DNA from: Takakia lepidozioides
Lineage: Eukaryota > Plantae > Bryophyta
Length of the DNA: 64,000 nucleotides
NCBI GenBank assembly: GCA_030704615.1
Contig: CM060731.1
Location: 18,476,001-18,540,000 of the forward strand
Direction of reading: 5' to 3'
Shown here: positions 28,041-64,000 of the stretch, in pieces
Layout of the letters: each line of letters starts with the position of its first letter
Position numbering within the stretch: the stretch's first letter is position 1
Made by a program: the position numbers and the translations under genes
The notes under the pieces: generated by a model
What the model saw: the letters and a program-made list of their open reading frames with translations, nothing else
Databases searched by the model: none
Told to the model about the DNA's origin: nothing

Positions 28041-29424
28041 CATCAGCATACCAACAATTACTCTCAGCCATGGTAACTCTAGAAGATTGAGCCCTGTGAA
28101 CAGTGTATGCAGTGCTAATATTGACCTCTGGAGACATACTCTCCACTTGATTTGCTTGACTTTCTGCTGCCTTCTTATCAGGACACTCGCGCTCCCAGTG
28201 TCCTCTTCTTCCACAACCATTGCAATGAGTTCGTTTCTTCAATTCCTCGATTCTCCTTCTCTTTTCCTGACGTTCAGCATACGTCAATCTTGGCTTACCA
28301 TCACCGCTTCCGCTGTTGTTCATATTACCTGGCCGACCAACAAAAAAGGCCTTATCTCTGGCTTCATCAAATGCTCCTCGTTCTTTGTTCAGGGTTTCTT
28401 CTTTTAGCAGTCTTACGGTAAGTTTCTCGATCGTCTGCTCATCGTTCGGAACACTGTCCCACGCTGAGATCATGTGTCGGTATGAAGGAGGTAAACTGCA
28501 AATAATCTTGGTGATTACTGCTCGATCTGTTGTGGCCTCCCCAAGATCGTTAAGCTGGCAGGCCATGGACTCTATGGTGCTAATGTGTTCAGCTACATCA
28601 TCACCATCACTCATCTTGTATTCAAAAAATTTCTGCTGTAGCATATGGATATTTTCGCTTGCGCACTGCTCATGAATGGTGATGAGACGACTCCACATCT
28701 TTGCTGATGTCTTGCATGCAATGAGTTGCTGCATGCGCTTCTTGTCTACCGACCTACAGATGTACAAAGAAGCACAGTTATCCTTGTCATCCCACTCATC
28801 CTGATCCAAAGCTTCTTCTCTCAATTCTATTCCCTCAACAACACGTAAAAGCTTCTTTGCTCGGAATAGCACTTGCATTTGTAACTTCCATAGTTGGAAG
28901 TTATCTCCCGTGAACTTCTCAATATTCGTCACATTCTTAGAATCTGTCTTCACTGACGCCATTTCTTCTATCACCCTTACTTCTACAGAAAGAAAACCTC
29001 TCACATAGCATTAAGCGATTGTGGGCCCATAACCTCTTGAAAATACTGATTTCATTGCTTGCTCATAGTTGTTTACAGAGTAGCCAGTAAGTTATAAAGA
29101 AGCTATCCAACACTATTGAAACACTGAGAAGTACGCGGCTTATCAATCTACAAGGCAATCCATCAAAATCAATGATGCTCACGCATCTGTAAGCTTAACT
29201 ACACCACGCTATGAACATACATAAAAACTAACTAAGTATCGTCTGCCACCAAAAAATACAAGTACTACTAAGTGCGGGAGATCCAACTAGCTAGAGATTC
29301 AAAATGTGACTGACTGGCATCTGTGATTGTGACTGCTCGGTGGACTGCCACCTAGTTGCTGACTATGACTATTCGACTAGCATGGTCCAGATGTCAATGA
29401 CGGACTGGATCTTCGATTTCAACA
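28041..29424 (-). mobile_element. Ty1/Copia retrotransposon, 5' half (5' LTR 29035-29424, PBS, gag)
   Basis: 390-bp LTR ~97% identical to 11831-12220. PBS GGTTATGGGCCCA. gag KFTGDNFQLWK..SLPPSY..CNGCGRRGHWEREC ending at WYAD. Preceded on the element strand by TATAC. Confidence 0.95.
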
Positions 29425-32600: not shown

Positions 32601-35600
32601 CCAAATTCGGGTGGCGGAAGGAGATGAGGAGAAGACCGCGTACAGGACAAGGTATGGTTCATACGAGTTCTTGGTGATGCCTTTTGGGTTCACCAATGCA
32701 CCAGCGACATTTAGCACGCTGATGAACAGCCTTTTCCAGGAGTGGTTGGATGACTTTGTGATCGTGTACATCGACGACATCTTGGTGTACTCGAAAACAA
32801 AGGAGGAGCACCTGGAGCACCTCAAAATGGTGTTCCAAAAATTGCGGGAAGGGAAGCTTTACGCCAAAGCTTCAAAGTGCGAATTCGGGGTCACGAAAGT
32901 GGAGTTCTTGGGGTATGTGATTACACAGGATGGGATCAAAATGGATGACAAAAAGGTGAGGGCGATCTTGGACTGGGAGCCTCCGACTTCGGTCCCGGGA
33001 GTGCGATCCTTCCTAGGACTCGCCTCCTATTACCGGAAGTATGTGAGAAATTTCGCCAAGATTGCGGGGCCGCTGTCGGACCTTCTGTGTAAATCTAAAG
33101 TCTGGGCGTGGAACACCTTTTGTGGCCAAGCTTTTGCTGAATTGAAGCAACGGATGGCGGAAGCTCCAGTCTTGAAAATCCCGGAGTTCGATCGTCCGTT
33201 CGAGATACATACAGATGCATCGGACTTCGCGATTGGGGGTGTACTTATGCAAGATGGACGTCCAGTGGCTTACGAAAGTAAGAAACTGAATGAAGTGGAG
33301 CGACGGTGGCCGACGCACGAAAAAGAGATGAAGGCGGTGGTGCATTGCCTTGAGCTCTGGCACCACTATGTTGGTTCCAACCCAGTGAAGGTGTTCACGG
33401 ACAATGTCACGGTGAAGTATTTTGCCACGCAGCCCAAGTTGTCCCCAAAACAACTTAGGTGGCAAGATACTTTGGCGGTGTTCGACGTGGATATCCAGTA
33501 CAAACCGGGACGAGACAACGTGGTGGCCGATGCTTTAAGTAGAAAGAAGCAGCTCTTGTTGGTGTACAAGGGCGAGACGGCGCTCCAAAGGAAGATCCGG
33601 AAGGCTTGCCGGAAGGATGAGCTGGCGAAGTCCGTGATGCAGGACTTGAGGATGGGGGTTAAATCACAGTTCCACTTGCAAAATGGACTGCTCCGGTATA
33701 AGCAAAAACGTCTCTACGTGCCGAAGGGAGGGATCAGAGATAGCCTCTTGAAAGAATGCCATGATAGCCCGCTTGCGGGCCACGGCGGAGCCAAGCGCAC
33801 TACGGCACTCTTGAAGAAAGAGTATTTCTGGCCCAAACTGAGGGAGGAGGCAGAGGAGTATGTCAAGACATGCACCACATGCCAACAAAACCGGAGCGAG
33901 TACAAAAAGCAAGCGGGGCTGTTACAACCCTTGCCGATTCCAGAGGGGACTTGGGAATGCGTCTCGATGGACTTCATGACTGCTATGCCGCTGTCAAAAG
34001 GATTCGATGCAATCATGGTGGTGGTATATAGGTTCAGTAAAATGGGCCATTTCATCCCCACCAAGGAGACGGCAACGGTGCAGGAGACAGGGCGACTTTA
34101 CTTCGCCCACGTCTTAAAGCATCATGGAGTCCCGAGGGATATTGTCTCGGACCGCGATCCAAAGTTTACGAGTAAATTCTGGAGAGCACTTTGGAAGAAG
34201 ATGGGGACGAGGCTGAAGATGAGCACCGCCTTCCAACCTACGACCGACGGCCAAACAGAAAGAGTGAATTCCGTAGTGAAGCAGATCTTGCGGAATTACG
34301 TGTCGGCAGACCAAACAGACTGGGTGGAACACTTAGACGCGGCAGAGTTCTGTTATAATAACACAGAACACTCCGCAACGGGAGTTTCCCCTTTCGTATT
34401 GGTCTATGGAAAAGCACCTCTGGTGCCGACAAGTTGGGCCGCCAAGGACGTTGAGGAACCGGCAGTAGCGGCGGTACTGGAAGAACGCGAGCGTTTGTTG
34501 AAGCTCGCAAAGTACAACATTGCCAAAGCTAGGAAACGGTATTAAAGGCAGGCGAATCGGAAGCGGAGGGAAGTGAAGTTTGAGGCAGGCATGGAGGTCT
34601 GGTTGAACATCAAGAATTTCCAACTACCTCCGGAAGTGAGTCCGAAGTTTGTACCTCCGTATGCGGGACCTTTTCGCATTCGGAAGGTTATGAATGAGGA
34701 TGTGTATGAATTGGAGCTACCGGCAAACAGCAAGGTGCACCCAGTATTCCATGTCTCCCTTTTTAAGCCTTACTTCAAAGATGAAGCGCGGCCGAATCGG
34801 CATCAAGTGTTGCGTCCGCCACCTATGCTGTTGGATCATGAAAATGAACCTGAGTACGAGGTGGAGGCAATACTTAAGTCGAGGAGGTTCAAGAACCGAG
34901 AAACTGAGTATCTCGTCAAATGGAAGGGCTATCATCATGTGGAGGCATCTTGGGTGCGTGCCTCAGAAATGGGAAACGCATCCGAGGCGGTTGCAGCTTT
35001 CGAAGGGCGACCTCAAAAGCGGAAGAAGCGTTGATGGGGACATCAACCTTGGAGCGTGGGGGAGGAAATGCATGCTTAGCCCGGCTTAGCTAGCTTAGTA
35101 ATCCGATTGCAAAAACTTGTATTGTACCAAAACGTGCTATAAATGAAATGGATTCCAAATGTTGTGCGTCCTATATTGTTTGGAATGGTGATGCATGGTA
35201 TGGTTGGCTAGTGTGTAGAATGCATGCTAGCTTATAAAAGTGGGAGAGGTAAATTGGGTTAATCGTGTGTTTGCGTAGTGCCGAAATCGGGTAACCCCCA
35301 TCCAAGGGGCGAGGAAACTTGCGCCTTCTTTGGGAGTTCACGTGCTAGTGCGCACCTGGCACGTGCGCGTACTATAACTGCGCTACCGAGGGGGTTGCCT
35401 TGTAGTGCAGGCTAACGCGGAAGCTACGTGCTTCCGTTCACGTACTATAATCGTGTAGCCTCGGGACGAAGTCGTAGTGCGGCTTCGGCGTGTTCCCGTA
35501 CCTCAGGCCAGCATTCCAAGGCGGACCCAATTGTAGTGATTGGGGCGCACGGTTGGTTCAAGGTTATCTTCCTAGTCAAAGAGGGTTCCAGGTGAACCCT

Positions 35601-36666
35601 TGCTCAAGGTGATGCCAAAAACGGCCTCATGAGCGATCGCAAGCAAGGTTGTTGCAGTAAGGCGATTCGATCCTCGGGGAGGATCGTTCCTTGGCCTTAC
35701 AGTAGGCTAAGAAGAGTGCACTGGGAGGAGCTGGAGAGGCTCCACCCTTGGCCGGGACTTGGAGGAAGTCGGCCGAACTAGCTAGTGGAGAGTAGAGTCA
35801 AGTGTGGGGTTTGGTTCTTTGCCATGGGACGCCATGGTACGGAAACAAACTCCTTGATGTGGGACGCCACAACTTGGATGTTCGTTTCTACAAAATGGAC
35901 AAGTCGATGAGGACATCGACTCCCTGTTGGTAGGGGTGTGTGTCGCGGCCCTTTGCCTTGAGGGCAGGGGGTCGGGACACATGAGGGGCTGCCCCTGTGG
36001 TGGGGGCAGTGGCAGCGATAGGTATGGGGGGCTGAAGCACCCTTGAGTGCCCAAGGCACTCAGGGAAGCGGAGGCGCTCACTAGGTGGAGCCCCGCACAC
36101 CGGGTTGCGGTGGGGGTGGCTCCACAAGGGGTGGTGGTAGCTTAGTGGGACTTAGTGGGGGTGACATAGGACTCACCATGGGGGCGGAGACCTCGTGGTG
36201 GGAGTCGTGGGGAGTCTTGGGACTCATCACGGTCCATAGGGGCCGTGGTGAGCAGGCCAAGACTCACCGCGACTCACCACCGGGAATCGAGGGTCTTCGT
36301 GGTGGTTCGCCATAAAATGGCATGGCTGGTTGTGAAACCCCCGCGGACAGCTACAGAAGTATATATAGGGAGTAGTAACCTCGAGAACGGTGCAAGCCCG
36401 TTGGTGACCAAAAACTAGTGAGTAAGCGAGCGAGCCGGAAAGCGACCAAAGAGTGGGGAACTGTTCCGGACTGCCATTTACCAAAGGGAATTCTCCTAGT
36501 CCCAAATAGGTGGAGGGTCGAGAGGGAAGTGAAGGGGGACCGTTATGTCCCGGTGAGCAGCCGAAGCTCCAAGTTGGCCCGGGCGGCCAGGTTGGGAGTC
36601 AGGCGCGCGCATCAAAGCGAGTAACTATGATTTGAAGGGGAGCTTATCGAAGTGAGGTGCGTGACA
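29692..36666 (+). mobile_element. Full-length chromoviral Ty3/Gypsy retrotransposon (Galadriel/Tcn1-like)
   Basis: 726-bp LTRs 29692-30417 and 35941-36666 (TG..CA, 10 differences counted). TSD GGCAT. PBS TGGTATCAGAGC at 30420. Confidence 0.97.
30473..35034 (+). pseudogene. gag-pol of the chromovirus (CCHC, PR, RT, RH, INT, chromodomain)
   Basis: [59 protein letters not shown]. One frameshift near 30990 and one stop at 34543. Confidence 0.93.
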
Positions 36667-42262: not shown

Positions 42263-42787
42263 CTAGTGTTGGGTCTTGGGTGAATTCATCAGCCGGACAA
42301 AATGTTGGAAAGAGACCTGGGAATCAGCCGAGCCGCTTGCTGTTTCCAGCATTGCTGTAAGGTCTTCCAAAGAGAGCGCTTGTCCGAGCGTGTTCATGAC
42401 GCCCTTGATATCATCCACACAGATCACACCATCCCCGTTTCTATCTAGCACACCAAACATATCCTCCAACACCTTGTTGTCCGGACCAAATACACCCCCT
42501 GCTTTGCCCGCCGATTGAGAATGCAAAAGACTCTGAAAGTCTTCAAAATTTACGCCACCATGACCATTCCGATCTGCAACTGCTATCATGCGATCAATAT
42601 CGTCTGCACTCACACTGCTGTTGAGATTTGTTTGCAGGAAGGCCAACAGATCAGACGCCACAATGTGTCCATCACCATCCTTGTCCAGAAGATCAAATGC
42701 CTCTTTCATATGAGCCACATCAACGCCCAAGTCTATAGAGCGGCCAAGCGTACGCAACCCGGAGCTTTCGGATCCAATTGGCCACAT
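42263..42787 (-). CDS. Calmodulin-like EF-hand protein (CML), intronless
   Basis: EF loops DKDGDGHIVASD, DRNGHGGVNFED, DRNGDGVICVDD and a degenerate fourth. First ATG at 42787. Confidence 0.9.
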   Translation of the reverse strand: MWPIGSESSGLRTLGRSIDLGVDVAHMKEAFDLLDKDGDGHIVASDLLAFLQTNLNSSVSADDIDRMIAVADRNGHGGVNFEDFQSLLHSQSAGKAGGVFGPDNKVLEDMFGVLDRNGDGVICVDDIKGVMNTLGQALSLEDLTAMLETASGSADSQVSFQHFVRLMNSPKTQH

Positions 42788-44273
42788 ATTCGAAAATCTG
42801 CTCAATAATACACCGTCACTGAGCTCTTGATTCAAGTCCTTGGAATCTCTTAGATCGTTCTAATTGTCACAACTTTTAATCTCTCCAAAGCAATTTGATC
42901 AAAAGTTCTTTGCAGCAATTTGAAAAGATCGCTCTCGCCGAAAAAAAAGAGAGAGACCAAAGGTATAAGTAAAGACGATGTCTGATTTCTTGATAGAAAG
43001 CGGGACTAGCAAAGAGTCCCAAGTCTTTTCCAATTATTCAGAACATAAGCGTACGCCTCAAGCCAGCCTGGGGAGAGAAAGTCAAAGAGAGAGAATCGTG
43101 AGAGAAGCGAGGGAAGAAGAAGGAAACACAACCGCACTTCCACCAGCTAGAAACATGGTGGGCCGAGCGTTGATTGGAGCTTGCGAGTCGGAATTCTTGT
43201 TCTGCGGTTGCGAAGGTGGGCCCTTCTCTTGCCTCTGCCGAGCGAAGCAGATCTCTTCCTTGCGATTCAAGCAGCCACGCTGCTTCCAACAGTTAATTAG
43301 GGTTTGAGAATAATGAGAAGAATGTTGCAGTTCCAGTATCTTTCAGAGTATCCAGTGTGTTTTCAGTTGCAGGTTCGATCAGTATATCCTCTTGTTCGTC
43401 TCCTGTGATTGCCAGTCGTGGGTCCCATCGCTTCGTGCCGTTCTTCGTATCTGCATGCGCATGAGGTTTTTGCTCACCTGTACAACCGCATTCCACGTGG
43501 TGTCGTTGTGAAATCTTTGCACACAACATGGGTGAGACTCGATCTCCAGTACTACGAGTCTTGTATGTATTTCTATGCTTTTAAAGTCTCCTCTTACGAT
43601 AGTAATTTTGTGCGTTCCTTTGCACAGTTGCAGTTGCTTTTCAGAATGTCAAGCTTCGCTAGTTTTTCCAAGTTTTTTTTTCCCCTGTCAGGTTAACACT
43701 ACGTAGTGCGAATTTCTTCAAGCTGCCTAACATGCTATGAAAAACGAGAGAAGACTCCGGTCGAAACCGGAGTAAATAAGAGCCACTTGGCCTTGCGATA
43801 AAAAAAAATCTCAAAATTACTCTTTGTTTTGAAACTGCATCCCCGGCCATCCTCCGTTTATGTTCATGTGATTTCTAAGCTCTTACAATGCTTATCAGTA
43901 TGGGAGTATTGGGTGGTGGAATTCAACCCTTGTTTGCAACACATAGTTCACAATGGGTGGTGTCAAATATTTGATGATTGCAGTCAAATAAAAAAAAAAG
44001 TTTACCAGATATTTGTGCATATTATAAAATTAAATAATTAGAGGGTGGATGAAAAAAAAAAAAAACCCTCATAGAAAATCTCTTTATCCACATGATTCCC
44101 TAAACTATATGGGGAGTGGATTACTATGTACACCAACTCATTTGCCCAATTTGGGAAGGTCAGGCAGACTGACTATATATGGAGTAGTTTTCCTGAGGTC
44201 ACTAGTTCCACCTATCAAATGGAGAAACACTCATCATATTCACCAAGGATCAGTCTTGGGTGTTACCCCGTAA

Positions 44274-46018: not shown

Positions 46019-47384
46019 TCTCCGACTTCCCGAGTCACGATTTCCTCTCTAGATCGGCCTGTAATGCGGGAGATAGCTGACAAGAGACACGCACAGACGG
46101 TTTTCAATAAAACAGTTGCCTTTGTTGGACGATACTCTCCATTTACTGACACCCCCTCACGGATCTGCTAATCAATTTAATATCTTCAGTCCCGCAACTC
46201 TCTAGTAGGCTTCCACTAGAGAAGTAACAATGAGAGAGAGATGGAGACCATACGAGAGGCTCAGAGGGAGTGCGGACCTAACGAGGTGGGCTGCATGCAC
46301 GGTGGCTGCGCTACACATGGCACCAAACACGGCGGCTAGGGAATTCCAAAAAGGCCTTGATGTGAAATGCATCGCAATTCACTTGATCACCCCCTAAAAG
46401 TGCGCAATTGAATTGAATTGCAAGGGCAATTGAATTGAATTGTCGGCACCCGATTCAATTGAATTGCGAATTTGGCAATTCAATTGAATTGCTGACTACA
46501 ATTCAATTGAATTGTAATCTATAATTTTTAACTTATTTTTGTATATAATATATATGTATATATTTAAATTATACATTTATACATACACAGGTATAAGCTA
46601 AAAATACATGTTGCCCGTCTATTCCAGTGTTGGGCGGTTCTTGCCTTTGTGAAGGAACCTTCGGTTCCGGTTCCACAAATTTTTGAAGAGACGGTTCCGG
46701 ATCCGGATCCGGTTATTTTTTATTAAGGCGGTTCCGGTCCGGTTCAGGTTCTGACTTTTTATGGGGGCGGTTCCAGTTACCGGTTAGTTGCTGGAAAAAA
46801 AACACCGGTTCCGGTTAGGTTCCGGTTCTTTTTTAAAAATATATTAAATTCTTTAAAAAAATTATTCTTCTGGAAAATTAGATGAACTGATCTGATTGGT
46901 CATACTGAATATTCAAAATTTTCAACTAAAACCAGGGAGTTTATTAGTAAAACAGAAGTAAATAAACTTATATGTTTTTTGTGATTGTCTTTTATGGTAT
47001 ATATAACAAGTTAAATACGCATGGTCTCCATTAAAAACGGAAAACCAGAGATTTTATAAGTTTTCGTACGGTGTAGCAAAGAACAACTAAAACAAACTAA
47101 CTATATAAGGATCTTAATTCAAAATACAAAACAAATTAAACATGTGTAATTCTATGGTTACCTTTTATGGTGCAGCAAAAGCACAACTAAAAAAAACTAC
47201 ATAAATTTGTGTTTTTTGGATGATGCTTTGTCGATATAGCATACAACAAACTAAGTACACGGGATGTCACTGAAATTTTCAATAAAAATGACAAATAAAC
47301 AAACTCCAATCAAAGGAGTATAGTGTAATATGTTGAGCAATAATTTGTCTCTAAGACAAATCATTCCACCTCAAAGAGGTTTGC

Positions 47385-49401
47385 CTATGCAATCAAGTCC
47401 TCATTCTCATCTAAGAGGACTTCTTCCCTATCCAAAAACTCTTTCATGGAAGTACTAAAGCAACCAACTCTAGCATCATTTGGCCAATTCTTGACTACAC
47501 TCACAAGCATATCAAGGTTTTCAATATTTAACCTGCACCGTCTCAAGCTTGTTATGACACCTGCAATACTAAAAACCCTCTCAGCTTCAATCTGAGATCC
47601 AACTATGCCGAAGATTAGCCGTGCCAAAAATCCCACATATGGAAAGAGAGACCCGTGTTCTTTCCACCATTTCAAAGGAGCCACGCACTCATCCTCAATT
47701 ATCTTCGTCCTTCTGAAATGTGATAGTTGTTCTCTCACTACTGTCAATGTCACATCTTCATTGTGGTCATGCACACCAAATAAGGACATCTCGTCCATTA
47801 TGGAAGTGGGCTGTGATTGGGCCGGAGTATCCGGATGTAAGACCTTGAAACACTTTACCAAAAGAGGCTCTAACACCATGCTATCATATTGGGACACAAT
47901 ATGCAAAGCACGTTCTTTGCCCACATATTGTGATACCAATGACAACCCCTTGTAACGTGGGTCAAGCATAAGCGCGAGCATATTGTGAGCTTTGCGCGAT
48001 TGAAACCCTTCCAAAAAAGAAAGAAATGGTTCCAAGACATATACCACCTCTCGAGCCATCCGCCATTCCAACAATGTCAACTCTGTTGAGAAATCCCCCA
48101 TGCAATGATCCACAGTTGCAGCCCTGGGAGCACTACTTCCTCGCATGCAAATTGTTGTGGCAATGGCTGCATTAAGAACATTGGACAACAGCCAAAATCC
48201 CCCAGATTGATTCATAATGCACTCATGAACCATAGGCCCTAGAACTGTAGAAATTGATTGGGCAATGGCCCACACTTGTGGACTTGGTATGCGAGACTGC
48301 AGTGCCAATGAGGTTTGCCTAGAGTAACAAGTGATTATGGCTTGCCTAAACTCCAAACTCTCTTGGAAGATGATCACCTTGGAAGCAAACCGTGTCTTCA
48401 CCGGAGTCTTCAATTTGTGGGGATGAATGCCGCTGTCCACACATGCCTTTGCCCATTCTTGTCTCGCTTTGCCATTTTTTTTTGTCCAAGTAATGGTTTT
48501 TTGCAACTCTGATCGGGCATTTTTTATAGAAACTGATCTCATATCTGTGCATACTTTTGCATCATTTGTTGCATACCGGCAACACTTGGACATTGCATGC
48601 CCAAAACAGCTACCCACAAATGGAGAATCCAACCCCAAACACGCACATGAGACCACCAAATTCAAAGCATTGGTCAAAGTGGCCAAGTTACCTCCCTCAT
48701 CTTTGACGTAAGCACTAATGCGAGTGTTGAGGCCATACTTCACAAAAAGATTGTTGACTTGATGTGCCATGGCAGCCCCAGATGTGTCAGGTGTCTCAAA
48801 CATGCCAAGAGTCACATGACATTGCTCCCACTGTTCATTAATAAAGTGCGCTATGATGACAAAAGTGTCAGTTCCCCTCTTGACATCCACAAATCAAAAC
48901 TCACAGAGCAAGTAGCACAACTCTGAAGAGATGGGGGCATGTAGCGCTCTTTCGTCTTCTCTGCCAAGATTGGAATGGCATCATTCACAAATGTCCGTCG
49001 AGAAGGGAAAACAATCCGAGGATTTTGCCTCAACACCATCCTTCTTAGCCAAGGGGATTCTACCAAAGACAGTGGAACCAACTCCTTTGCAATGAACAAG
49101 ATTAAATCCTCATTGAACTGCTTCTGTTGATCATCATTTTGGTTGTATGGAGTGGAGCTCCCAAAAAAAGAAGTTATGTTTCCAGGAGTGGGGCTGGGCC
49201 TCTTTTTTGCTGGCCTACGGGCCTTCTCAGGTCCTTCATTTTCCCTCTCAATCCACCTACGCAAAACAATGTCATGTTCTTGATCCACATGCTTTCGAAG
49301 GGCAGAGATACCATTGGTTTTATTATAGGTCACAATGCCCTTCTTGCTTGCAGGAGTGACACCAACAGGATGACATAGAACACACCTCATTTTGTTATGG
49401 A
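47385..49401 (-). pseudogene. hAT transposase (BED finger, DDE, dimerisation domain), 3' part
   Basis: MRCVLCH..LRKHV, SFDLWMS, KDEG, CFGH, KTRF, LDPRYK, PLKWW..ERVFS. Frameshift near 48880. Confidence 0.92.
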
Positions 49402-51319
49402 TGTCATGGTTTTAGTCACGATTAACTAGAATTACCTACTTCTAGTTAACTAGGACATTTTGGATATTTATATTTGTATTTTGTGTGTTGGGACTTCATT
49501 TGGTCTCACATGCCAAGTGAGGTGTCAAACCTCACTTGGAACATGTTAGCATTATTGTAAAATACATGGACCAACATGGTCAATTTCGGGAATGACATAT
49601 AGTACGCTTTCATGTACTATGGGATGGGTTTTCCTCTTGTGAGTGTTGAGGAGGGCTCATCTTCTTGTAGTTGAGCCTCCATGAGCCTCTCCCACCTCCA
49701 TAGCTCTAGGTATTGAGAGGGAGTGTGGTGAGGGCTTTGTAGGGTGGATTCCTTTAGCAAAGGTGCCCTTGGCTTGATTTAGTTTATGTGATTGAGTGGA
49801 TTCATGAGTGGAGTGTTTTCATTGTGTGTTCGCTTCCATTATCACTACAAGAAGATCACCTTATGCTTGTGAGTGCGGAGTGTAAGGATTAGTTTTAGCA
49901 CTTGTGTTGGTGGACACCGAGGAGTGAGAGAGCTAGGAAAGCTCAAGTATCTCACAAGGCTTGCAAGGTGCTGCAAGGAGGAGTGTTTTTGCATTGCATC
50001 AAAGAGGTGGAGAGCTCAAGGAGAGAGCTCTTGAGTTACAAGACTTTGCAGAGGTGGAGAGCTTAAGGAGAGAGCTCTTGTATCACAAAGCTTGCATGGT
50101 TTTGCAAGGTAAGTGCTTGTATATGCACTGAGGGTTTGAGAGCTTGGAAAAGAGCTCTTGTATCACAAGAGAAACGTCTTGTGTGTGGAAAAGATAGACA
50201 CTAGGGTTTCAAGAGCAAGCTCTAGTTGTTCATGGTGTGAAAGAGAAGCCAAAGAGCGGCACATGCTTGGGTTGGAAACACCATAGAAGGAGTACAACAA
50301 GGGTAGCTTGAGGAGTATTGAGTAGCTCAAGAGAAGCTAAGAAGTGGTTGTTCTATCCAAGGTGAAATGAAGCCAAGTGGTGTTTTATTTGGTTGACAAA
50401 CAAGCAAGCAAAGACGGCGCTAGAAGAGAGTGCTTTTGCTAGTTCTATGAGTTCTTGGATTGCTCTTGGTGAAGTAAGTGATTGACCAAGCAAGTGATTG
50501 ACCAAGCAAGTGGCGCATGTGTGGAGCATGTTTTCCAAGTGTGGCTTCCAATTCAAGCTTGAGGAAAACTAGAAGGTGAAGTGAGCAAGTTCATTCCTTG
50601 TGTATGAGTTGTGGAAGAAAAGCCAAGGAGCTACATAGGCTAGGGCTTGAAGACAACAAAAGCAACCACTTGGAGAGCATCAAGAAGCTCAAGATGACTC
50701 CAAAGGGAAGCATGTGGGTAAGAATTCTATCCATGATGATGTGAAACCAAGCCTAGAGTATTGAAGAGCTTGGAGCACATGTGGGAGATCATTGGAGGTG
50801 GTCTTCATGAATAAAGGAGATTGTGGCTCACGGCATGCATAGCAACTTCAACCATATATTAGCATGTGACAAGACAAGGAAGGGGAAGGGGAAGCTCATG
50901 TATTCATTCCCTTTTTATTTAAGTTTTGTGGTGGATGGTTGATCAAGCAAGTGATGCTTATGTGGAGCATGCTCTTTAGGGCTTGTCACTTCAAGTTTGA
51001 GAAGATGAGCTCTTGAATAGAGGTGTGGATACACATTATGATGAATGAAAAGAACACCTAGGTCAAGAGGTGGAAGTGTGTGGGGCTAGCCCATGCAAGG
51101 GAAAGCACATGGAAGATGGCATACAAAATTCAAATTCAAGCAAGGCTTGGCGTTTGTCATTGGGCACATTAGCTTGCTATGAGTTCCAAGGAGATCAAGA
51201 GGAACTTGTCAATTTGGGATGAATGCATTGCAAAGTAAGATAATGCAATCTTGCATGCATGTTAGGGGGGAAGATACCATGAAGAAGGTGTTTCTTACTA
51301 TACTCTACAAACCCTAGTC

Positions 51320-51515: not shown

Positions 51516-54500
51516 CAAGTGGAGAGACTTTGCCTACCATACGTTTTCCTTAAAAGTGTATGACATCTAGGGTGTATCTGGAGGAGTATTGCCTTTGGAG
51601 GATCTTTGGGGGGTCCTTTGAGGAGCTTTTGTAAGACACTTGAAGAGCTCTTGAAGGGGTGTTTGGAGGACTATTGGGGGTCCTTGAAGACCAATATTTG
51701 GCAAACATTTGGAGCTTTGGAGGGCTATTTGGAGGACTATTTTGGGGTCCTTGAGGGCCAAGATTTGGCAGGCTTTGGGGGCCTTAGTGAGATTGTTTGA
51801 GAGACATCTTGAGGGCTCTTGGAGAGTTAATTGAGAGACCCTGGAAGGTAGTTCTGTCTGTTGGTCATGAGCAAGAGCGTTTAGAGATAAGGGGAGACTA
51901 GTGGGATGAGAGCATTCTGGGATTAAGAATTGCTTTAGTTTCTCTTCCTCGTAGTCTTCCACCCTCTATGTAGGCCAAAACCTTTCCGTAGGTGGAGGCA
52001 AGAGTCAGTTCGGGTTTGGGCTGGGGTGTCCTTGCAGGAACGACACTGTGGAGTGTTTTTTTTTTGTGTGGGGGAGTTACTGTCTTGATTTTCTTGTGTT
52101 TGGATCCCCCCCGCACCTGCATGCTTGACTGTGCGCCATGTCAGTTTTGTGTGGGCGCTTGTTTTCATAGGAGGTTGGTCCGGATTTGATCACCGGCCAA
52201 TCCTAGAGCATGCTGTCGGTGGTGAGGCTGGGGTGATGACCAGTCAGACCACCATTGTTTCTCTTATGGTGAGGCTAGGTTGATGACCAGCAGACCATAT
52301 GAGTGCTTGCGGTGGATGCAGGTGCAAGTTTATGTTACGAACCTAGTAGTCTAAGCCATAAGCCGCAACAGGTTCTCTACCCGGTTACCTTGTGGAAAGG
52401 GGGATTAGAGACAGGTTTACAACATGTGTGGTTGTGAGCTTTCATCACGGAGGTGCCACCAGTTGCTGATGAGAGTGCCGGTACGAGCACCAGCGATACT
52501 AGTGGGTATACAAGACGAGGTGTGCGGTTTAGGCCACCTTCACCTTCAGTGTCTTCTGAGGAAGGTTCAGACCCAGAGTTAGGAGGATTCTTGCTGAGGG
52601 TGCAAGCCATTTCCGTGCCATTGTTGTGGTGGAGGAAATGTATGGAGCTACCAAGGGGCCACGTCGGTACTCTGGAGCTGTGGGCACCATCGAGCTTGAT
52701 GATTTCATACAGGAGTTTGATAGTTGGTGTGATTTACAGCAGATGCGCAATCCACAACTGTTTATGCCTTTCATGGCGTGGAAGGGGTTGTTTCAGCACT
52801 TTGAGGGGCCGCCCATGGATGACTACCATGAGTTTAGGCGGGGACATGAGGTGGAGATTGAGGAATGGCGGGTGTATTGGTCACCTGACTATGTCTCCAT
52901 CACTAGAGGCACAAGGGCAGTGGTGACACCGGCAGCTACACCGGCAGCTTCTGCAAGCAGCAGTGGGACGTCAAGTAGAACAGGACCTGGGAAGTCCACC
53001 CAAGCTCCTGCTGCAGCACCAACACTCGTGCCTGCCTTTAACCTAGTTGTGGAGTTCTTCAAGGAGTTGAGGAGAAACTACCAAGGGATAAGGACAGAGA
53101 AGTTGCGGAGCTTGCAAGAGTTCCAACGAAGGTCTACTGAGAGTTTGAGGGAGGCTTACACTCGCATGAGGCGCTTGATAAACGTAACCCAAGGGGTTAC
53201 AGAAGCTCAGGCAGTCCAATTCTGGTATGGGATCCTGGACAAGGAGCTGAGGAGAAGGGCGCGGGATGCAACTCTCCTACAAGTGGACCAACCCACCGTA
53301 GCAAATGTGTTTTTGCTGGCAGAGCGGATAGAGCTCAATATGGTGGAGGAGCGAGTGGTCATGGTGGGGTTTGGTCAGGAGACACAACGAAGTGGGGCTC
53401 CTAGCCAACAACAACCACTACCCCAACGTGCTCAAGGCAACAAGGGGGCTCAGGCAAAGCCCAGGGAAGGGCCGAGAGGATATCAATTGCAGAGGTCACT
53501 TCCTTCATTCTCAGACCAACAACAGTTGGGTATGACATGTTGGGATTGTGGAGGACCCCATGTTAAGAGAGATTGCCCGGAAAGAGGCAAAGGGCCAGCT
53601 CAGGCACAGCCTACACAACTATAATATGGGCATTGTGGCAAGTATGGGCATGAAGAGGCCCATTGTTATGACTTGCATCCTGAGCTACGGCTAGGCCAGT
53701 TCCAAGGGAACAATGGTGGCCGAGGACGAGGCAATGTAGTCCAGAGAGGTAGAGGAGGCAGAGGTCGGGGTGGAGGACGTAACCAAAACCAAGGAGCATA
53801 GGGTCAGGGTCAAGGTCATGACCAAGGCATGGTGGATAGACTTGCCCAGCTAGAGCAACGTCTTGCTGCCATGGCCACTACTCATGTTGCGCCAGCTCCA
53901 AGGCTTGAGGTTCAAGCCCCACCTGCACAACCTCCTATGCCTAGGGAAGACCAGATTGGTATGGGCTTCATGTGTGGAGCCGCACTTGCAGGACCATTGC
54001 ATGTGGACTCTGGAGCTGCTGTCACTCGAGCAGCAACGCGTGCTCCTGAGCCAAGAGGAGCGGATGTGGATTTTGATCCACAAAGAGGAGAAGCAAGTCA
54101 GCAGACAATGCTTCCACAGTCTTTCACATTGGCTGAGACAGTGCCAACTATGTCATCGATGGCACCCGCTCGCCCAAGTGTGTCAGAAGTAGAGCCACAA
54201 GTGTCATTGGGGAGAGTTGGTTGGTTCGGGAAATGCCAGTGGGTGGTGCAGCAAAGCAAGGTGCAGCCAGTACATTGTTGGGGGCGGCTATGGCAATTTG
54301 CCAAGCTCCATTGTTTTCTGCCACGACAATTGCAATGTCGAGGATGCGGCCAGCTGCAGTGTTTAGACTGGCAGCTAGACTCTGTGAGAGTGGTGATGCA
54401 TCGGCACTATCTGCGGGGATAGCGGATCAGGTGCAGTGCATGGATGCCCTGGATTCAAGGGTGAAGACAGCCACAGCTGCGCCATGGCAAGCGGCAGCTG

Positions 54501-55329
54501 CAAGGTTGCAAGAGTTGCCAGCTAGACCAGCCATCGAGCGTAGTGTGGTGACTCCTGGGGTAGTCCTGGTGGACAATCAGGATGGTGTGTTTCAGTTGGG
54601 TGGCCCGGCCGGGAGGAGGTATAGGCCACTGCGGGTCTTGTTGGACTCAGGAGCACAGCCATTGATGTTGGGGAAAGCAGCAATTGCAGGCTTGGGCCTT
54701 ACAGAGGCGGATTTGGAGCCTTGTTCTTTCCAAATTCAAACATCTTTGGGCGGTTCAGAGAAAGCACGAGGGATTACACGCCATGAGCTCTTCATTCGAT
54801 TGCAGCCAGATCATCCTACAGATGGCTTTGTCATGAGAGCTAAAGCCATTGTTACGGACGCGATGTCTTATGATGTACTTGTTGGTGGGGCTGTGTTATA
54901 CCCGATGGGCTTTACTTTGGACTTTTGGGAGGAAACAACATCCTACAGGCCGGAATGGCAGTCAGGGGATGGTCGGCATGCACTGCTCCCAGTGCGGTTT
55001 ATTGGGAATGTAGCGGTGGATCATAGGAACATGATGCCCACATTGGCTGCATTCTCAGGGGTGGTGAGCTCTTGGAGGGCAATATCCATGCAGATGATAG
55101 GCCACCACCTGATGAGGACAAACAATTGGCATACAAGGCTGATTTGCTTCCTCATGTGTCTGTTCATATTCCACTGTGGGGTACAGTTAGGAATTTGCAT
55201 CGAGTAGCAGACGAATGTGTGCACCAAGCATGGCAGGAGGCCTATCCATTGGTGAGTGAGGGGAGTTCAGCATCTGGACCTCCTTAGTTAGCTCCTTTGG
55301 ATACAGTGCCCATTACCTGGCAACCACCT

Positions 55330-56260
55330 GACTCAGGGATTTGTTTGCTAGACCTGTTTGGAGGCATGAGCACTGGGCTTGCAGGAGTGTTGCAAGCTAG
55401 GATTAAAGTATGCAAGTACTTGTATGTGGAGAAGGATGAGATAGCTCGGCGTATTTCTATGCGCCACATCGCCTTGCTCACACACCGGTATCCTGAGTTG
55501 TTGCCTCTCTCAGCAATTCAAGGGTATCAAAAGGCCTTGCTAGCAGACATTACCTTGCTGGGGACGGATAATTTGGACTGGCATGGTGCCATTGACTTGG
55601 TGATAGCTGGATGGCCTTGCCAATGACACTCTCCCACAGGTCATGGGAACGGCTTGCATGATGCTCGATCGCATTTGTTTTGGGAGATGTTGAGAGTGTT
55701 GCGTGACTTGCAGACGAGGCAAGTGCAACCTCTAGCCTATATCTTGGAGAATGTTCCTCTTATGGGGGACTCTCGGGCCAGGGTTATGGCCAGTGTGCAT
55801 CAAGTGCGGTCTTGGATTGGATCGGCGGTGCTATTGGATGCAGCAGCGGTGGGATCACGAGCATCGACCTCGATTGTGGTGGACCAATCTTGCACCACCA
55901 GAGCTGCTCAAAAGAGCATACGATTCCATTCAACGGCCACCCAATCTCACACTTGAGGGCATTTTGGATCAAGGGAGGCAACCACAGAGGGTGCGACATG
56001 ATGACCGTCCACCTCTAGTAGTGGTAAATTGAGTGGGGCAGCCACGTGCGGCCTTGCCTACGCTCATGAGCTTTCCCTCGTCTCATGCTTTTCGAGACAA
56101 TGGTCCTGGGTTGATTTGGACAGTGTGCTACAGCAATTGGTGGAGCCCAATGCAGATGAGCGAGAGCGGGCAATGGGATATGCCACGGGCACTACAACTG
56201 TGCCAGCTCTGTTAGAGGCATCATGCCGACATGTGTTGGGTCAAGCAATGGAGAGAATTG
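55330..56260 (+). pseudogene. DNMT3-like C5 cytosine methyltransferase domain within the retrotransposon pol
   Basis: Motif I LLDLFGG (55345), II YVEKD, IV DLVIAGWPCQ (PC at ~55615), VI YILENV (~55747), VIII (RA)HRPRLWWTN, IX ERERAMGY, X LGQAM, in canonical order. Confidence 0.92.
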
Positions 56261-59256
56261 CTTGACATGGGTCATTGGCTTGTGCATGGCTGAGCAACGA
56301 AGGTTGCAGACAGTGGTGGCTAATTATGCACTCCCATTTGGTATTGTATCCCCTCTGCCAACCGGGACGGTTGAGGCAGTGAGTGGGGGCGAGCAGCAAT
56401 ATGAGGAGTGGGGAGAGCCATACACTGAGGATCAGTTGGAGGCCAAGGTGGCCAATGTTTTTGAAGAGGTTGAGAATGTTTCTTCCCTAGAGGATGTTTT
56501 CAAGGTGGTTATGGCAGAGCAAGTGGAGGCTACGCCACAGTCAGATTGGGCGGACAAGGCCCAAGAGGTTGCTATCTAGCAACCAAAGGATTCGTCTCCT
56601 ACCCCCAAGCCTGATGTACCCAAGGTTGCAGTCACTGAGGACAATTGGGAACCAGATGTTGGACCTACAGTCACCGGAGGAGAGAGACGGAGGATCCAGC
56701 GATTTCTAAGGGCTTATAGAAATTGCTTTGCCTTCGGTTTGAAGGATTTGGGGAGTTATGAAGGGTCAGGAGATTCGTATTGATTTGGCAAGTGACACGC
56801 CAATCTTTCGAAGGTCCTACCGGTATAGTGACATGGAGAGGTCATTGATCTAGTCACGGACTATGGAGTTGTTCGAAGCTGGATTGGTGGAGTTGTCAGG
56901 CGGGGACTATGCCTCGGCAACGGTGATGCCAGCTAAGAAGGATATCTATGGCAATTGGACAGAAAGAAGGATGTGTGGGGACTATCGTCCTATGAACCGT
57001 CAGACTAAGTCCGATAGATATGTCATGCCAACTCCAGAGGAAATCTTTGATGCCATTGGGCATACGAAGGTGTTTAGCACATTGGACTTGCGATCCGGTT
57101 ACCATCAGTTGCCAATCAAAGAGGCTGACAAGCAAAAGACGACATTCTGGGGGATTGACCAACATGGGAAGGATTGCTTGTACCAATGGCGCTTCCTACC
57201 GTTTGGGTTGAAGAATGCTCCGGCAGAGTTTCAGAGGGTTATGGATAGGATTTTCGTGGGGCTAGACTTTTGCCCGGTGTTACATTGATGACATCATCGT
57301 CTTTAGTGCTACGGTTGAGGAGCATGAGAGACACCTTCAGGTGATGTTTGAACGCTTGAGAGCGCATAGGTTGAAATTGCACCCTAGGAAATACAAGTTC
57401 TTCCACAACCAGATTGAGTATTTGGGCCATATGATATACCCTGGAAGATTGGGTGTTCAAAAGACGAAGGTGGAGGCCATTGCACACATTCCACGCCCCA
57501 TAGATATTAGCAGAGTTCGTGCTTTCATGGGGTTGGCAAACTACTATCGACGGTTTGTCAAGGGATTTAGCAGCATTGCAAAGGCTCTTACTAAGTTGAC
57601 CAAGGTGGGTCAGGAGTGGCAGTGGGAGGAGGAGCAGGAGGAAGCCTTTGAGGAATTCAAGGCTCGATTGACTTCTGCACCTATTCTGAGGCGGCCTATT
57701 CGGGGGCGGCCTTTCCAGCTACATACGGATTGGAGTATGCTGGGGATTAGAGCAGTGCTCACATAGATGGATGATGAGGGAAGAGAGTTTGTAGTGGCAT
57801 ATGCTAGCCGCTCAAACAATGATGCTGAGGCGAAGTATAGTTCCTATGAAGGGGAGTGTCTAGCTGCGGTATGGGCAGTGGCACATTTCAGATGCTACCT
57901 CTATGGCAATCTCTTCACCCTTGTCACGGATCACCAACCATTGAAGTGGTTGATGGAGTCAGACAAGCTTACAAGGAAGCTTGCACAGTGGCCACTTATG
58001 CTTCAAGAATACGATTTTCAGGTGGTGCATCGAGCCGGTATTGTCAATCGGGATGCAGATGGATTGAGTCGTAATCCATGCACGAGCGAGTATGGGAGGA
58101 TGGACGAGTGAGGATTGTGCCTTAGCCAACACAACGAGCGCGATTGGTACGCCATGCCCATGAGGAGTTGAGACATTTTGGGGTGCGGAGCACTCATAGT
58201 TTGCTGCAAAGATAGTACTGGTGGCGGGGCATGCTCACGGATGTGCAACAGTTAGTGGCAAGGTGTATGGTGTGTGATAGATTGCGAGCTTCTTTCAATG
58301 CACCTACTCCACAATTGCATCCTTTACCCATTATGGGTTTGGGCTATCGTTGGAGTCTTGACTTCGCAGGCCCATTGCCACTAACGATTCGTCATAACAA
58401 GTATGTGCTGGTGATGGTGGAACATTTCTCCAAGTGGATTGAACTGGTGGCATTGCCTGACAAGGCAAGTGAGGGGGCTTCGTATGCATTCTTAGATCGA
58501 GTGCTTAGCCAATTTGGTGCTCCAGCCGAGGTACTCACGGACCAGGGGAGAGAGTTCTTGGGGGAGTTTCAGGCTTTGTGTGAGCAAGCCTTGATAGATC
58601 ACGGCACTACTTCTCGGGATCATCCCGAGGCTGATGGCCTGGCAGAAAGGGTTGTACAAACAGTCAAGCGAGGCTTGCGCAAGTATGGCTTGCAGAAGGG
58701 ACACTTAGGAGATTGGGACCTTCAGCTACCTTGGTTGGCCATGGACTATAGGTTTAGCAAACAAGCATCACTTGCCTCGTTCTTGCCGTATTTCCTTCTC
58801 TTTGGCCGAGAGTCAGATTTGCCTGCATCTATTCGCAGGGAGACTACAGTAGTTCTCAACCTTGATGATTCGGATGTGTGGACACAAGCATGTGCCCGAC
58901 GAGCAGAGTTGTTCAAGAGAATCATGCCTATGGCTTTTGAGAACCTTGCTATTGCACAACACCGAGACACGTTGAGGTACACCACTATACGTGGAGGGGG
59001 ATATCGGCCAAGTGTTCGGCGTTTCCACCCTGGGGACTATGTGTATCTGCAGCAGACAGCGCCTACGACTTTGGATGTCACAGCAGGATGTGTGATTCTA
59101 AGGGTCCGGGAGGTGTTGCCTTCAGGAGTGTTGATTCTGGAGGGTCGAGATGGCATGGTATGGAAGGACCATGTGCGCAATTGTGCGCCATGTCACCTTC
59201 TACATGTGGATGGGAGGATAGATCCCAACCTTGCAGTGGTACCTGCAAGGTTGCGT

Positions 59257-59395
59257 TGCATGCTATGTGGGCATGCTGGTGGTGCCGCGACCATGTTGGT
59301 GTGTGACAAATGCTCAAGGGGGTGGCACATGGGATGCTTGACACCGCCACTTGAGGAGGTTCCTAGTGGAGAATGGTTGTGTCCACGATGCCTTG
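59257..59395 (+). other. PHD finger at the integrase C-terminus
   Basis: CMLC..MLVCDKCSRGWHMGCLTPPLEEVPSGEWLCPRC is a C4-H-C3 PHD, in frame with INT. Confidence 0.93.
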
Positions 59396-59748
59396 GACAT
59401 AGGTAGTGGGCATGACAATGGTGGAATTGACAAGTGATCCAAGGTCTAGCTGATGGGAGCTCAACGCCATGGATACTTAATTGAAGATCATGGATTGCAG
59501 GAAGGCAAGTAACGATGGGGCTACTTTTGCACCGGGCCTCTTGATCTATTGACTTTAGATACTGGGACATGTGTGATTGAAGACCAAGCGATGATTTTAT
59601 TGAGATGGATACTTGTCAGCTATCCGGTGTTAGAGGGACCTAATCACCAGCTAGGGGGGCGATTGTGGCATGGTTTTCTAGGATTGTGTGCTTAGAATGT
59701 ATGGTGGACAACGATGTATGTTGTGGCACGATGCTTAGGTGCACGACA

Positions 59749-63097: not shown

Positions 63098-64000
63098 TGC
63101 TCTCCCTTAGGCTTATCTTGGGCTCAAGCCTTACCACGGGCAAAGGATTGACAGACGGACAACAAGAATAGACGGGCAACATGTATTTTTAGCTTATACC
63201 TGTGTATGTATATATGTATAATTTATATATATACACATATATATTATATACAGAAATAAGTTAAAAATTATAGATTACAATTCAATTGAATTGTAGTCAG
63301 CAATTCAATTGAATTGCGCACTTTTAGGGGGTGATCAAGTGAATTGCGATGCATTTCACATCAAGGCCTTTTTGGAATTCCTTAGGCGGCCATGCATCAT
63401 CGCACTCTCTTTCCCTGCTACTAGATGCTTTATCCCTCCAAGCATATCCCACGGATCTAGCCGTCGTAGGGACGACATCCATCCGACTTAGCTTCAGACT
63501 AAATGGATGAGCTTTACCGGATGAACAGTAGCTTGGATGGAGAATCGAGGTGATGAGAAGGTCAGACGTGCGCAAGCGCGGTCGTCTTACTTGACCGCAG
63601 TCAAGATTTGGCGACACAGTGACCCGCGCGGCGACCGTGCGGCAGACTGCGCGCCGCTGGTCCCGGACCCGCGGCAAAAATGCAAGCACTGAACAGACAG
63701 AACGTAAGCATGTTGGCTTGCAAGGATATGGCAGTTGTCCCAAGGCTTCCACATTCTTTCTTCGGATTGATTCTGCGAGATGGGCTCTTCAGACTTGGCT
63801 TGCAATGGTTATAGATCTCACCCCGAATTGGGGTGGAGCATACAGGCCAGAAGAATGGCGGAGGGATCAAGGGGAGAGCAGACTGCGAAAATCGCAAAGT
63901 TTCCACAGTGGAGGTGGCTTCGAAAACATGCAGAACACCACCACCACCTCACGACTTTTCGATCATAAGTGTGAGAGGATGAAGGCACTGCTGGAGGATG

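What the first reader, a model, noticed from the sequence alone, without database searches (positions are those of the whole stretch)
59257..59406. PHD finger where chromoviruses carry a chromodomain
Seen: the integrase ORF ends in an intact C4HC3 PHD, whereas the two other Gypsy elements in this window end in chromodomains. Known: PHD fingers read histone H3 tails (often H3K4 state), and DNMT3 enzymes are normally guided by the PHD-like ADD domain. Inference: the element pairs a histone reader with a DNA-methyl writer, so the PHD may target integration and/or the DNMT.
Basis: partly seen in the sequence, partly recalled or inferred. Interest (0 to 1): 0.7.

Follow-up and report, generated by a model that had tools for sequence, protein, structure and literature searches.

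The report
PHD-tipped integrase of Gypsy-DNMT3 retrotransposon
A dead copy of a plant jumping gene ends its integrase with an intact PHD zinc finger that nearly all its relatives keep, and which likely docks the integration machinery on unmethylated histone H3 tails rather than steering the DNA methyltransferase that the element also carries.

Summary
Confirmed. An intact C4HC3 PHD (59257-59391) closes the integrase frame of a broken Gypsy element: gag, protease, DNMT3-like domain, RT, RNase H, integrase, PHD. The window's two other Gypsy elements end in chromodomains at the equivalent place. The PHD is the family rule: 64 of 66 representatives found with a PHD-free query, and 71 of 80 loci (8 cut off, 1 remnant). 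Relatives occur in liverworts, Sphagnum, Klebsormidium and chlorophytes. The PHD always flanks the integrase, while the DNMT moves (before RT, or between RNase H and integrase) or is missing. In the window's subfamily a conserved in-frame TAG separates DNMT from RT-integrase-PHD. The finger lacks the methyl-lysine cage tryptophan and resembles readers of unmodified H3 (ATXR5, KDM5 PHD1, BAZ2A), but the window's subfamily has lost several acidic residues. Best reading: an integration tether analogous to a chromodomain, not an ADD-like guide; binding is untested. It fits KnitGypsy-Dnmt3 (2018), and a PHD in a Gypsy polyprotein is published for Chlamydomonas Gypsy-7a_cRei. The scan noted this feature three times before, on other DNA.

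The parts
59257..59391 (+). PHD finger (C4HC3), intact; unmodified-H3-reader class by sequence
   Evidence: Pfam PF00628 E 9.4e-11; ligand spacing; PDB matches CHD4, KDM5A/B PHD1, ATXR5, BHC80, BAZ2A; AlphaFold2 model, rmsd 1.0-1.7 A to several of these
58990..59199 (+). integrase C-terminal SH3/Tudor-like beta-barrel, then a short linker to the PHD
   Evidence: five strands in the model; top Foldseek hits are Tudor+PHD proteins; no Pfam hit; own profile finds it across the family
58132..58824 (+). integrase H2C2 zinc finger (in-frame TAG at 58213) and DDE core (D 58360, D 58540, E 58645)
   Evidence: Pfam Integrase_H2C2 and rve; motif positions
56782..58060 (+). reverse transcriptase and RNase H, with a frame change and stops
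   Evidence: Pfam RVT_1, RT_RNaseH_2; own profiles; tblastn with intact L001 frames
56577..56579 (+). in-frame TAG followed by CAA CCA between DNMT and RT; likely a programmed read-through stop
   Evidence: TAG-CAR at the same place in 11 related loci; L001 has two intact frames split by this stop alone
55336..56253 (+). DNMT3-like C5 cytosine methyltransferase domain, broken (stop right after PCQ, two frame changes)
   Evidence: Pfam PF00145 E 1.8e-12; DNMT3A best PDB match E 1.6e-7; motifs DLFGG 55351, PCQ 55615, ENV 55747
54566..55000 (+). aspartic protease (DSG motif)
   Evidence: Pfam Asp_protease_2 E 0.004, below the curated cut-off; own profile
52701..53670 (+). gag capsid region and two CCHC-like knuckles, the second broken
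   Evidence: Pfam Retrotrans_gag E 1.8e-4; translation; own profile
59629..59668 (+). conserved 3' stretch with a purine-rich (polypurine-tract-like) run, just before the first terminal repeat of relatives; the repeats themselves are not recognisable in this copy
   Evidence: 88-93% identity to 9 loci; no repeat pair

Best explanation
The PHD is a family-wide, conserved tail domain of the integrase of a Gypsy-DNMT3 retrotransposon, and it likely tethers the integration complex to nucleosomes whose H3 tail is unmethylated at K4, much as a chromodomain does in chromoviruses. Shown here: the fold and ligands, the position after the integrase's SH3-like barrel, near-universal presence in the family, purifying selection, and no aromatic cage tryptophan. 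Also shown: the DNMT changes position or is missing while the PHD stays beside the integrase, and a TAG separates DNMT from RT-integrase-PHD in this subfamily. Inferred: after protease processing the PHD stays on mature integrase and grips H3 A1-R2-(K4me0). That would bias new copies away from H3K4me3 promoters towards gene-poor or silent chromatin. The DNMT would be a separate module, in this subfamily made mainly with Gag-protease, and probably acts on the element's own cDNA. The copy in this window is dead and does none of this now.
For: With a PHD-free query, 69 of 150 representatives carried the family-type barrel. Of these, 66 had room for a PHD and 64 have one; the other 2 begin one and break off. 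Loci: 71 of 72 with room, 8 of 80 cut off, and L079 keeps a frameshifted remnant. Among the 64, the DNMT lies between RNase H and integrase in 43, before RT in 6, and is not in the frame in 15. P0270 and P0185 run unbroken from protease to PHD with no DNMT and no room for one. The sister group P0353/P0372/P0381 (FastTree support 0.995 with the family) has its PHD on the other side of the integrase and no DNMT between RT and integrase; P0353 has a Dam methylase instead. TAG-CAR between DNMT and RT occurs in the window and 11 loci. The residue two before the His is G in 174 of 181 complete fingers and never W; in the representatives G in 52 of 60, no W. Asp after the third Cys in 170 of 181. Nearest solved PHDs are CHD4, KDM5A/B PHD1, ATXR5, BHC80, BAZ2A and UHRF1, several solved with unmodified H3. 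pN 0.16-0.27 against saturated pS 0.67-0.78 in the 9 of 14 loci that could be compared. Gypsy-7a_cRei, a Gypsy with a PHD in its polyprotein, inserts in intergenic DNA 2.6 times more often than chance (PMC9940879, passages).
Against: No binding or insertion-site data for this family. The window's subfamily lacks several acidic residues. The loop between Cys 2 and Cys 3 has none in the window and in 41 of 88 short-tailed fingers. The ATXR5 Asp44 position is Ser. The position three before Cys 1 is Arg here, but D/E in 36 of 60 representatives. H3 affinity or K4 discrimination may therefore be weak. In the larger clade (43 of 64) the DNMT lies just upstream of the integrase, so DNMT, integrase and PHD could stay one protein. 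A second bryophyte subfamily has no stop between DNMT and RT (L029, L052, L057, L059). DNMT and PHD co-occur in most members (27 of 31 protease-to-integrase loci; 3 cut off, 1 deleted). Most of the 15 DNMT-less frames start too near RT to judge, and two (P0321, P0338) have 540-600 unexplained residues where the DNMT usually sits. The Gypsy-7a bias may reflect selection after insertion, as its authors say, and its kinship to this family was not tested.
Confidence: 0.62

Rival explanations
1. ADD-like guide: the PHD reads H3K4me0 to direct or switch on the element's DNMT3-like enzyme, either in one DNMT-integrase-PHD protein or within the integration complex, so that the new copy or its flanks are methylated.
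For: DNMT and PHD co-occur in most members. The catalytic Cys and the EN motif are each kept in 78 of 79 DNMTs. In 43 of 64 representatives the DNMT is next to the integrase. ATXR5 is a precedent for a similar PHD tuning its enzyme (PMC5499861, passages). That the DNMT3 ADD reads H3K4me0 is recalled.
Against: The PHD is kept where the DNMT is absent (P0270, P0185) and in the sister clade. DNMT position varies, PHD position does not. A TAG and about 1000 residues separate them in the window's subfamily. It is a single canonical PHD, with no GATA-like finger as in ADD (recalled) and no ADD-domain structure among its PDB matches. KnitGypsy DNMT activity was not seen in yeast, a result the authors call inconclusive (PMC5890265, passage).
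Confidence: 0.13
2. The finger is needed for integrase function but not as a K4-state sensor. It binds H3 tails without regard to marks, binds another host or element protein, or is structural.
For: Loss of acidic loop residues and of the Asp44 equivalent in the window's subfamily while the zinc ligands and core stay conserved; pN is higher in the PHD than in the integrase core.
Against: The H3 A1 pocket motif (V-P-x-G-x-W) and the M-L-[LV]-C-D strand are conserved family-wide, and ATXR5 uses these surfaces for H3.
Confidence: 0.18
3. The PHD reads H3K4me2/3 and steers insertion to active chromatin.
For: Cnidarian retrotransposons carry PYGO-type H3K4me-reading PHDs (bioRxiv 10.1101/2021.11.30.470311, passage). 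One solved plant PHD bound to H3K4me1 (EHD3) is among the weaker matches.
Against: No cage tryptophan in any of 181 fingers (the position's role is recalled); the top matches are unmodified-H3 readers.
Confidence: 0.05
4. A chance fusion or captured host fragment peculiar to this copy.
For: The copy is dead and degenerate.
Against: Same domain at the same place in relatives from liverworts to chlorophytes; purifying selection.
Confidence: 0.01

Closest known systems
KnitGypsy-Dnmt3 of Klebsormidium nitens (de Mendoza et al. 2018, PMC5890265; passages, section 9 and three supplement files searched; figures not seen), called 'Gypsy-DNMT3' of streptophytes in bioRxiv 10.64898/2026.05.21.726589 (passages, section 7)
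   Same: Gypsy pol with an intronless, unrearranged DNMT3-like domain. DIRS-like split repeats (A-coding-B-A-B) occur in related loci. K. nitens proteins KFL_015960010 and KFL_005000010 are hits at 49-54% identity and carry the same PHD.
   Different: The paper's main text has no 'PHD' and the held supplement text none; its Fig. 4c could show one and was not visible. It treats the capture as specific to the K. nitens lineage, whereas relatives here occur in liverworts, Sphagnum and chlorophytes, with two DNMT positions. The window copy has lost its repeats.
Gypsy-7a_cRei of Chlamydomonas reinhardtii (Craig et al., PMC9940879; passages)
   Same: Gypsy Gag-Pol with a PHD; the authors propose it limits harmful insertions; intergenic bias 2.6-fold.
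   Different: No DNMT is named in the passages read. The legend lists PHD before INT, like the sister group P0353/P0372/P0381 rather than the window's element. Sequence kinship was not tested.
Chromoviruses (e.g. MAGGY; Gao et al. 2008, as cited; not read)
   Same: Histone reader placed after the integrase's SH3-like C-terminal domain (window ORF 34546: SH3_Tf2-1 then Chromo).
   Different: Different reader (predicted unmodified H3 N-terminus against methyl-K9) and a different lineage. No chromodomain in any family member scanned.
EpiLTRs and DAM-LTRs (bioRxiv 10.64898/2026.05.21.726589; passages, section 7)
   Same: LTR elements combining a histone reader with DNA methyltransferases.
   Different: Those use a chromodomain, a DNMT sister to DNMT4 and a DAM; here a PHD and a DNMT3-like enzyme. 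The preprint's only 'PhD' is in the acknowledgements.
Unmodified-H3-reading PHDs: ATXR5 (5VAB; PMC5499861, passages), KDM5A/B PHD1, BAZ2A, BHC80, CHD4 PHD2, UHRF1
   Same: Same spacing and fold (rmsd 1.7 A, 43% identity to ATXR5). Equivalents of Val59, Pro60, Gly62 and Asp41 are kept, Leu39 is Val and Leu37 is Met (mapped by ligand spacing, inferred).
   Different: The Asp44 equivalent is Ser and loop 1 is not acidic in the window's subfamily.

Membership tests
PHD finger | Cys4-His-Cys3 ligands with PHD spacing | tested here: met
PHD finger | cross-brace PHD fold with W two residues before Cys 7 | tested here: met
   AlphaFold2 model, pLDDT about 85-94 over the finger, rmsd 1.0-1.7 A to several solved PHDs
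H3K4me2/3-reading PHD | aromatic cage with Trp two residues before the His (recalled) | tested here: not met
   Gly in the window; no Trp in 181 family fingers
Unmodified-H3 (H3K4me0) reading PHD, ATXR5 type | A1 pocket (Pro60/Gly62), hydrophobic residue before Cys 3, Asp after Cys 3 | tested here: met
   (mapping by spacing)
Unmodified-H3 (H3K4me0) reading PHD, ATXR5 type | second R2-binding Asp (Asp44) and acidic loop / N-terminal acid | tested here: not met
   Ser and Arg in the window; variable in the family
Unmodified-H3 (H3K4me0) reading PHD, ATXR5 type | measured binding to H3(1-10), weakened by K4 methylation | not testable with these tools
   needs peptide binding assays
KnitGypsy-Dnmt3 / Gypsy-DNMT3 | Gypsy order protease-RT-RNase H-integrase | tested here: met
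KnitGypsy-Dnmt3 / Gypsy-DNMT3 | intronless, unrearranged DNMT3-like domain within the polyprotein region, key residues kept | tested here: met
   catalytic Cys in 78 of 79 relatives; window copy broken by a stop and frame changes
KnitGypsy-Dnmt3 / Gypsy-DNMT3 | DIRS-like split direct repeats A-coding-B-A-B | tested here: inconclusive
   complete in 6 of 22 loci examined, partial in others; absent from the window copy, which keeps only the adjoining 40 bp
KnitGypsy-Dnmt3 / Gypsy-DNMT3 | homology to the K. nitens elements | tested here: met
   K. nitens integrase-PHD proteins at 49-54% identity; not matched to the paper's own named copies
KnitGypsy-Dnmt3 / Gypsy-DNMT3 | methyltransferase activity | not testable with these tools
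   inconclusive even for K. nitens (PMC5890265)
Chromovirus | chromodomain on the integrase and RT in the chromovirus lineage | tested here: not met
   no chromodomain; long branch from the window's chromovirus
ADD domain | GATA-like finger plus PHD, adjacent to the DNMT3 catalytic domain (recalled) | tested here: not met
   single PHD about 1000 residues downstream; no DNMT3, DNMT3L or ATRX ADD among the PDB matches listed
REXdb non-chromovirus Phygy / Selgy clades | placement with REXdb reference domains | not tested
   no reference sequences on hand; PMC6317226 has no 'PHD' and was read as passages only

The most novel reading that the evidence does not exclude
The PHD marks an ancient green-lineage Gypsy clade, spanning chlorophytes to bryophytes, that uses an unmodified-H3 reader on its integrase in place of a chromodomain and swaps DNA-methyltransferase cargo around it: DNMT3 before RT or before integrase, a second amino-methyltransferase-like domain behind the PHD, Dam in the sister group. 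The same reader would both choose H3K4-unmethylated targets and bring the DNMT to methylate each new copy on arrival, rebuilding the animal DNMT3-ADD logic inside a transposon.
Probability: 0.17. Interest if true: 0.75.

Novelty: new member of a known kind. Interest (0 to 1): 0.4.

Why it matters
If the finger reads H3K4me0, it is a second chromatin-reading route, besides chromodomains, by which green-lineage LTR elements choose insertion sites. It is testable with a 50-residue domain and with existing insertion maps. The family also extends DNMT3-carrying Gypsy elements, described in the papers found only from Klebsormidium or 'streptophytes', to liverworts, Sphagnum and chlorophytes, and shows that the DNMT changed position while the PHD did not. 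The single dead copy adds little beyond that: both parts have precedents.

Tried and rejected
Terminal repeats for the window copy: self-BLAST, a sensitive 3'-versus-upstream search and the repeats of close loci found none. Pfam does not recognise the barrel before the PHD. The DNMT tree (79 domains) roughly separates the two positions but cannot tell one move from two captures: the before-RT group has support 0.46 and two sequences fall outside. The trees are FastTree runs without a curated outgroup set, so the order of events is not claimed. The host lineage was not resolved: a YSL6-like gene in the window is 57-65% identical to named vascular-plant proteins and 70-75% to unnamed records, so the host is a land plant; a bryophyte is likely from the element's nearest named relatives. 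No host genome was held, so copy number and insertion sites were not measured. Whether PHD and DNMT touch each other, and whether the PHD binds an H3 tail, remain without any structural model. The PHD review by Sanchez and Zhou and the REM1 paper were not available, so statements on cage residues are recalled. Supplement figures of PMC5890265 were not among the held files and preprint supplements are closed; either may show the PHD. Literature searches for a description of this PHD+DNMT3 combination found none. The first two homologue searches used a PHD-containing query and are biased (119 of 120 with PHD), so the family count rests. Left out of the 66: P0373, P0258 and P0344 (no room), and DNMT-bearing P0311 and P0350, whose predicted proteins lose the barrel and PHD after the integrase core (deletion or gene-model error, not resolved).

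Full report
Observation. The stretch 59257-59391 encodes C-x2-C-x11-C-x2-C-x4-H-x2-C-x14-C-x2-C, with a stop at 59404-59406. Pfam calls it PHD at E 9.4e-11, in the same frame as an integrase core. An AlphaFold2 model of 58990-59403 (39-row alignment, mean pLDDT 78) gives a five-stranded barrel, a loose linker and a confident PHD. The PHD superposes on ATXR5, BAZ2A, BHC80, UHRF1 and DPF fingers at about 1-2 A. The window's other two Gypsy elements end in SH3 plus chromodomain.

The element. Upstream lie gag, two knuckles, a protease, a DNMT3-like domain (Pfam E 1.8e-12; best solved match DNMT3A), RT, RNase H and integrase. The copy is dead: there are stops in DNMT, RT, RNase H and the integrase zinc finger, at least six frame changes, and no terminal repeats. 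The host is a land plant, not resolved further. The nearest named relatives of the element are from liverworts (Calypogeia 79%, Marchantia, Riccia).

Is the PHD the rule? Searches with the integrase-PHD frame gave 420 and 320 hits, 120 of each listed, from liverworts, Sphagnum, Klebsormidium, Volvox, Pleodorina, Tetrabaena, Haematococcus and Chromochloris. These favour PHD bearers, so the test was repeated with a PHD-free query (RT to barrel of the intact locus L001). Of 150 representatives, 69 have the family-type barrel, 66 of them extend far enough, and 64 carry the PHD; the other two start one and break off. Two DNMT-bearing proteins that lose both barrel and PHD (P0311, P0350) fall outside this count and are unexplained. 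Of 80 metagenome loci, 71 have it, 8 are cut off, and one has a frameshifted remnant. Against the 9 of 14 loci that could be compared codon by codon, synonymous sites are saturated (0.67-0.78) and replacement sites differ by 0.16-0.27, so the finger was under purifying selection.

Whom does it serve? Among the 64, the DNMT lies between RNase H and integrase in 43, before RT in 6, and is not in the frame in 15. Most of the 15 start too close to RT to judge. P0270 and P0185, however, run from protease to PHD without a DNMT, with only 230-240 residues between protease and RT and about 190 between RNase H and integrase, too few for the ~320-residue domain. P0194, P0239 and P0304 nest in the clade with the DNMT after RNase H but lack it there. 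The sister group has its PHD just before the integrase and no DNMT between RT and integrase; one member carries Dam. In the window's subfamily an in-frame TAG-CAR sits between DNMT and RT in the window and 11 loci, and L001 consists of two intact frames split by that stop alone. Many of these loci are closely related, so they are not 11 independent events. The PHD thus follows the integrase, not the DNMT. Against this: the two co-occur in 27 of 31 loci spanning protease to integrase (3 cut off, 1 deleted), the DNMT adjoins the integrase in the larger clade, a second subfamily has no separating stop, and the DNMT's catalytic residues are kept in 78 of 79.

What does it read? The position two before the His, the cage Trp of H3K4me3 readers (recalled), is Gly in 174 of 181 complete fingers and never Trp. 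The closest solved fingers are CHD4, KDM5A/B PHD1, ATXR5, BHC80, BAZ2A and UHRF1. ATXR5 holds H3 A1 with Pro60/Gly62, R2 with Asp41/Asp44 and K4 with backbone carbonyls (PMC5499861, passages). By ligand spacing (inferred; the alignment was not printed) the window keeps Val59, Pro60, Gly62 and Asp41, has Val for Leu39, and Ser for Asp44. Its first loop has no acidic residue, like 41 of 88 short-tailed relatives, whereas most algal-type fingers have two or more. Unmodified H3 N-terminus is therefore the best guess for the family; for the window's subfamily the affinity may be low.

Mechanism. Shown: anatomy, conservation, linkage to integrase, absence of the cage. Inferred: the PHD stays on mature integrase and tethers the integration complex to H3K4-unmethylated nucleosomes, steering copies from active promoters. 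The DNMT acts as a separate module, probably on the element's cDNA, as de Mendoza et al. suggest for such elements (abstract). Probabilities: tether 0.62; mark-blind or non-histone role 0.18; ADD-like guide 0.13; K4me3 reader 0.05; accident 0.01.

Comparison with what is known. KnitGypsy-Dnmt3 (PMC5890265; passages and section 9 read, three supplement files searched, figures unseen) matches in domain content. Its DIRS-like split repeats are complete in 6 of 22 loci examined, with 4-bp duplications in 4 of 5. K. nitens hits carry the same PHD. A PHD in a Gypsy polyprotein, with the same proposed role, is published for Gypsy-7a_cRei (PMC9940879, passages). PHDs are called widespread in retrotransposons (PMC6673714, passages; bioRxiv 10.1101/2021.11.30.470311, passages) and occur on Ginger1 transposases (PMC2836005, passages). 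Reader-plus-methylase elements are described as EpiLTRs (bioRxiv 10.64898/2026.05.21.726589, passages and section 7). An opinion piece states that such methylases are absent from land plants 'such as tracheophytes' (PMC6338049, parts 1-2 of 4 read); the bryophyte hits here extend the range, and no vascular-plant name appeared among the listed hits. Eight searches found no text describing the PHD of Gypsy-DNMT3 elements. The scan's own notes record the same feature three times in other genomes; my reading was set before that look-up.

Verdict. Real and conserved; a new member of a known kind, with unpublished-looking family details (range, two DNMT positions, DNMT-less members, read-through stop). 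Interest 0.4.

Noticed in passing
window 56577-56585; L001:5083; L002, L007, L009, L010, L012, L014, L020, L025, L026, L041: Conserved in-frame TAG followed by CAR between DNMT and RT, which resembles a known read-through context (recalled). It would make Gag-protease-DNMT the abundant product and RT-integrase-PHD the rare one. It is absent from a second subfamily (L029, L052, L057, L059).
   Followed up: partly
L041, L029, L061, L078, L021, L052: Split repeats A-coding-B-A-B with TG...CA ends and a two-base spacer at the internal B/A joint, like a repeat-repeat circle junction. 4-bp target duplications in 4 of 5 loci with resolved ends.
   Followed up: partly
P0145, P0180, P0181, P0218 and others; L044:10332-11390, L065:11068-11553: Chlorophyte-type relatives continue after the PHD with a ~110-residue domain and often a second methyltransferase-like fold (DPFxGxG, SPPF in some). 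There is a weak N6-adenine methylase Pfam hit in P0218 (E 0.003) and Atlas look-alikes among bacterial and phage N6/MTS methyltransferases. Up to three chromatin modules occur in one element.
   Followed up: partly
P0353, P0372, P0381: Sister Gypsy group with the PHD between RNase H and integrase; P0353 has a Dam domain before the protease.
   Followed up: partly
   Followed up: no
P0022, P0065, P0069, P0082, P0093, P0120: Several Marchantia gene models named 'PHD-type domain' proteins are fragments of this retrotransposon and may inflate PHD gene counts.
   Followed up: no
window 29692-36666: Young chromovirus with 98.6% identical 726-bp LTRs and one stop in pol.
   Followed up: no
window 8492-12220 (+) and 27979-29424 (-): Copia pol, and a Copia gag frame 17 kb away, with a 390-bp 97% inverted match between them. 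The gag frame directly adjoins the partial chromovirus at 28039-26810.
   Followed up: no
window 18242-20224: Tandem array with a ~64-bp unit, and related repeats to about 21600.
   Followed up: no
window 46333-46624 and 63166-63388; 47385-49411 (-): 89-97% inverted matches 16.6 kb apart, next to a hAT transposase; they may be the ends of a DNA transposon or two MITE copies flanking the Gypsy-DNMT3 copy.
   Followed up: no
window 5513-7561 (+); 42263-42859 (-): Host genes: a YSL6-like OPT transporter and a calmodulin-like EF-hand protein.
   Followed up: partly
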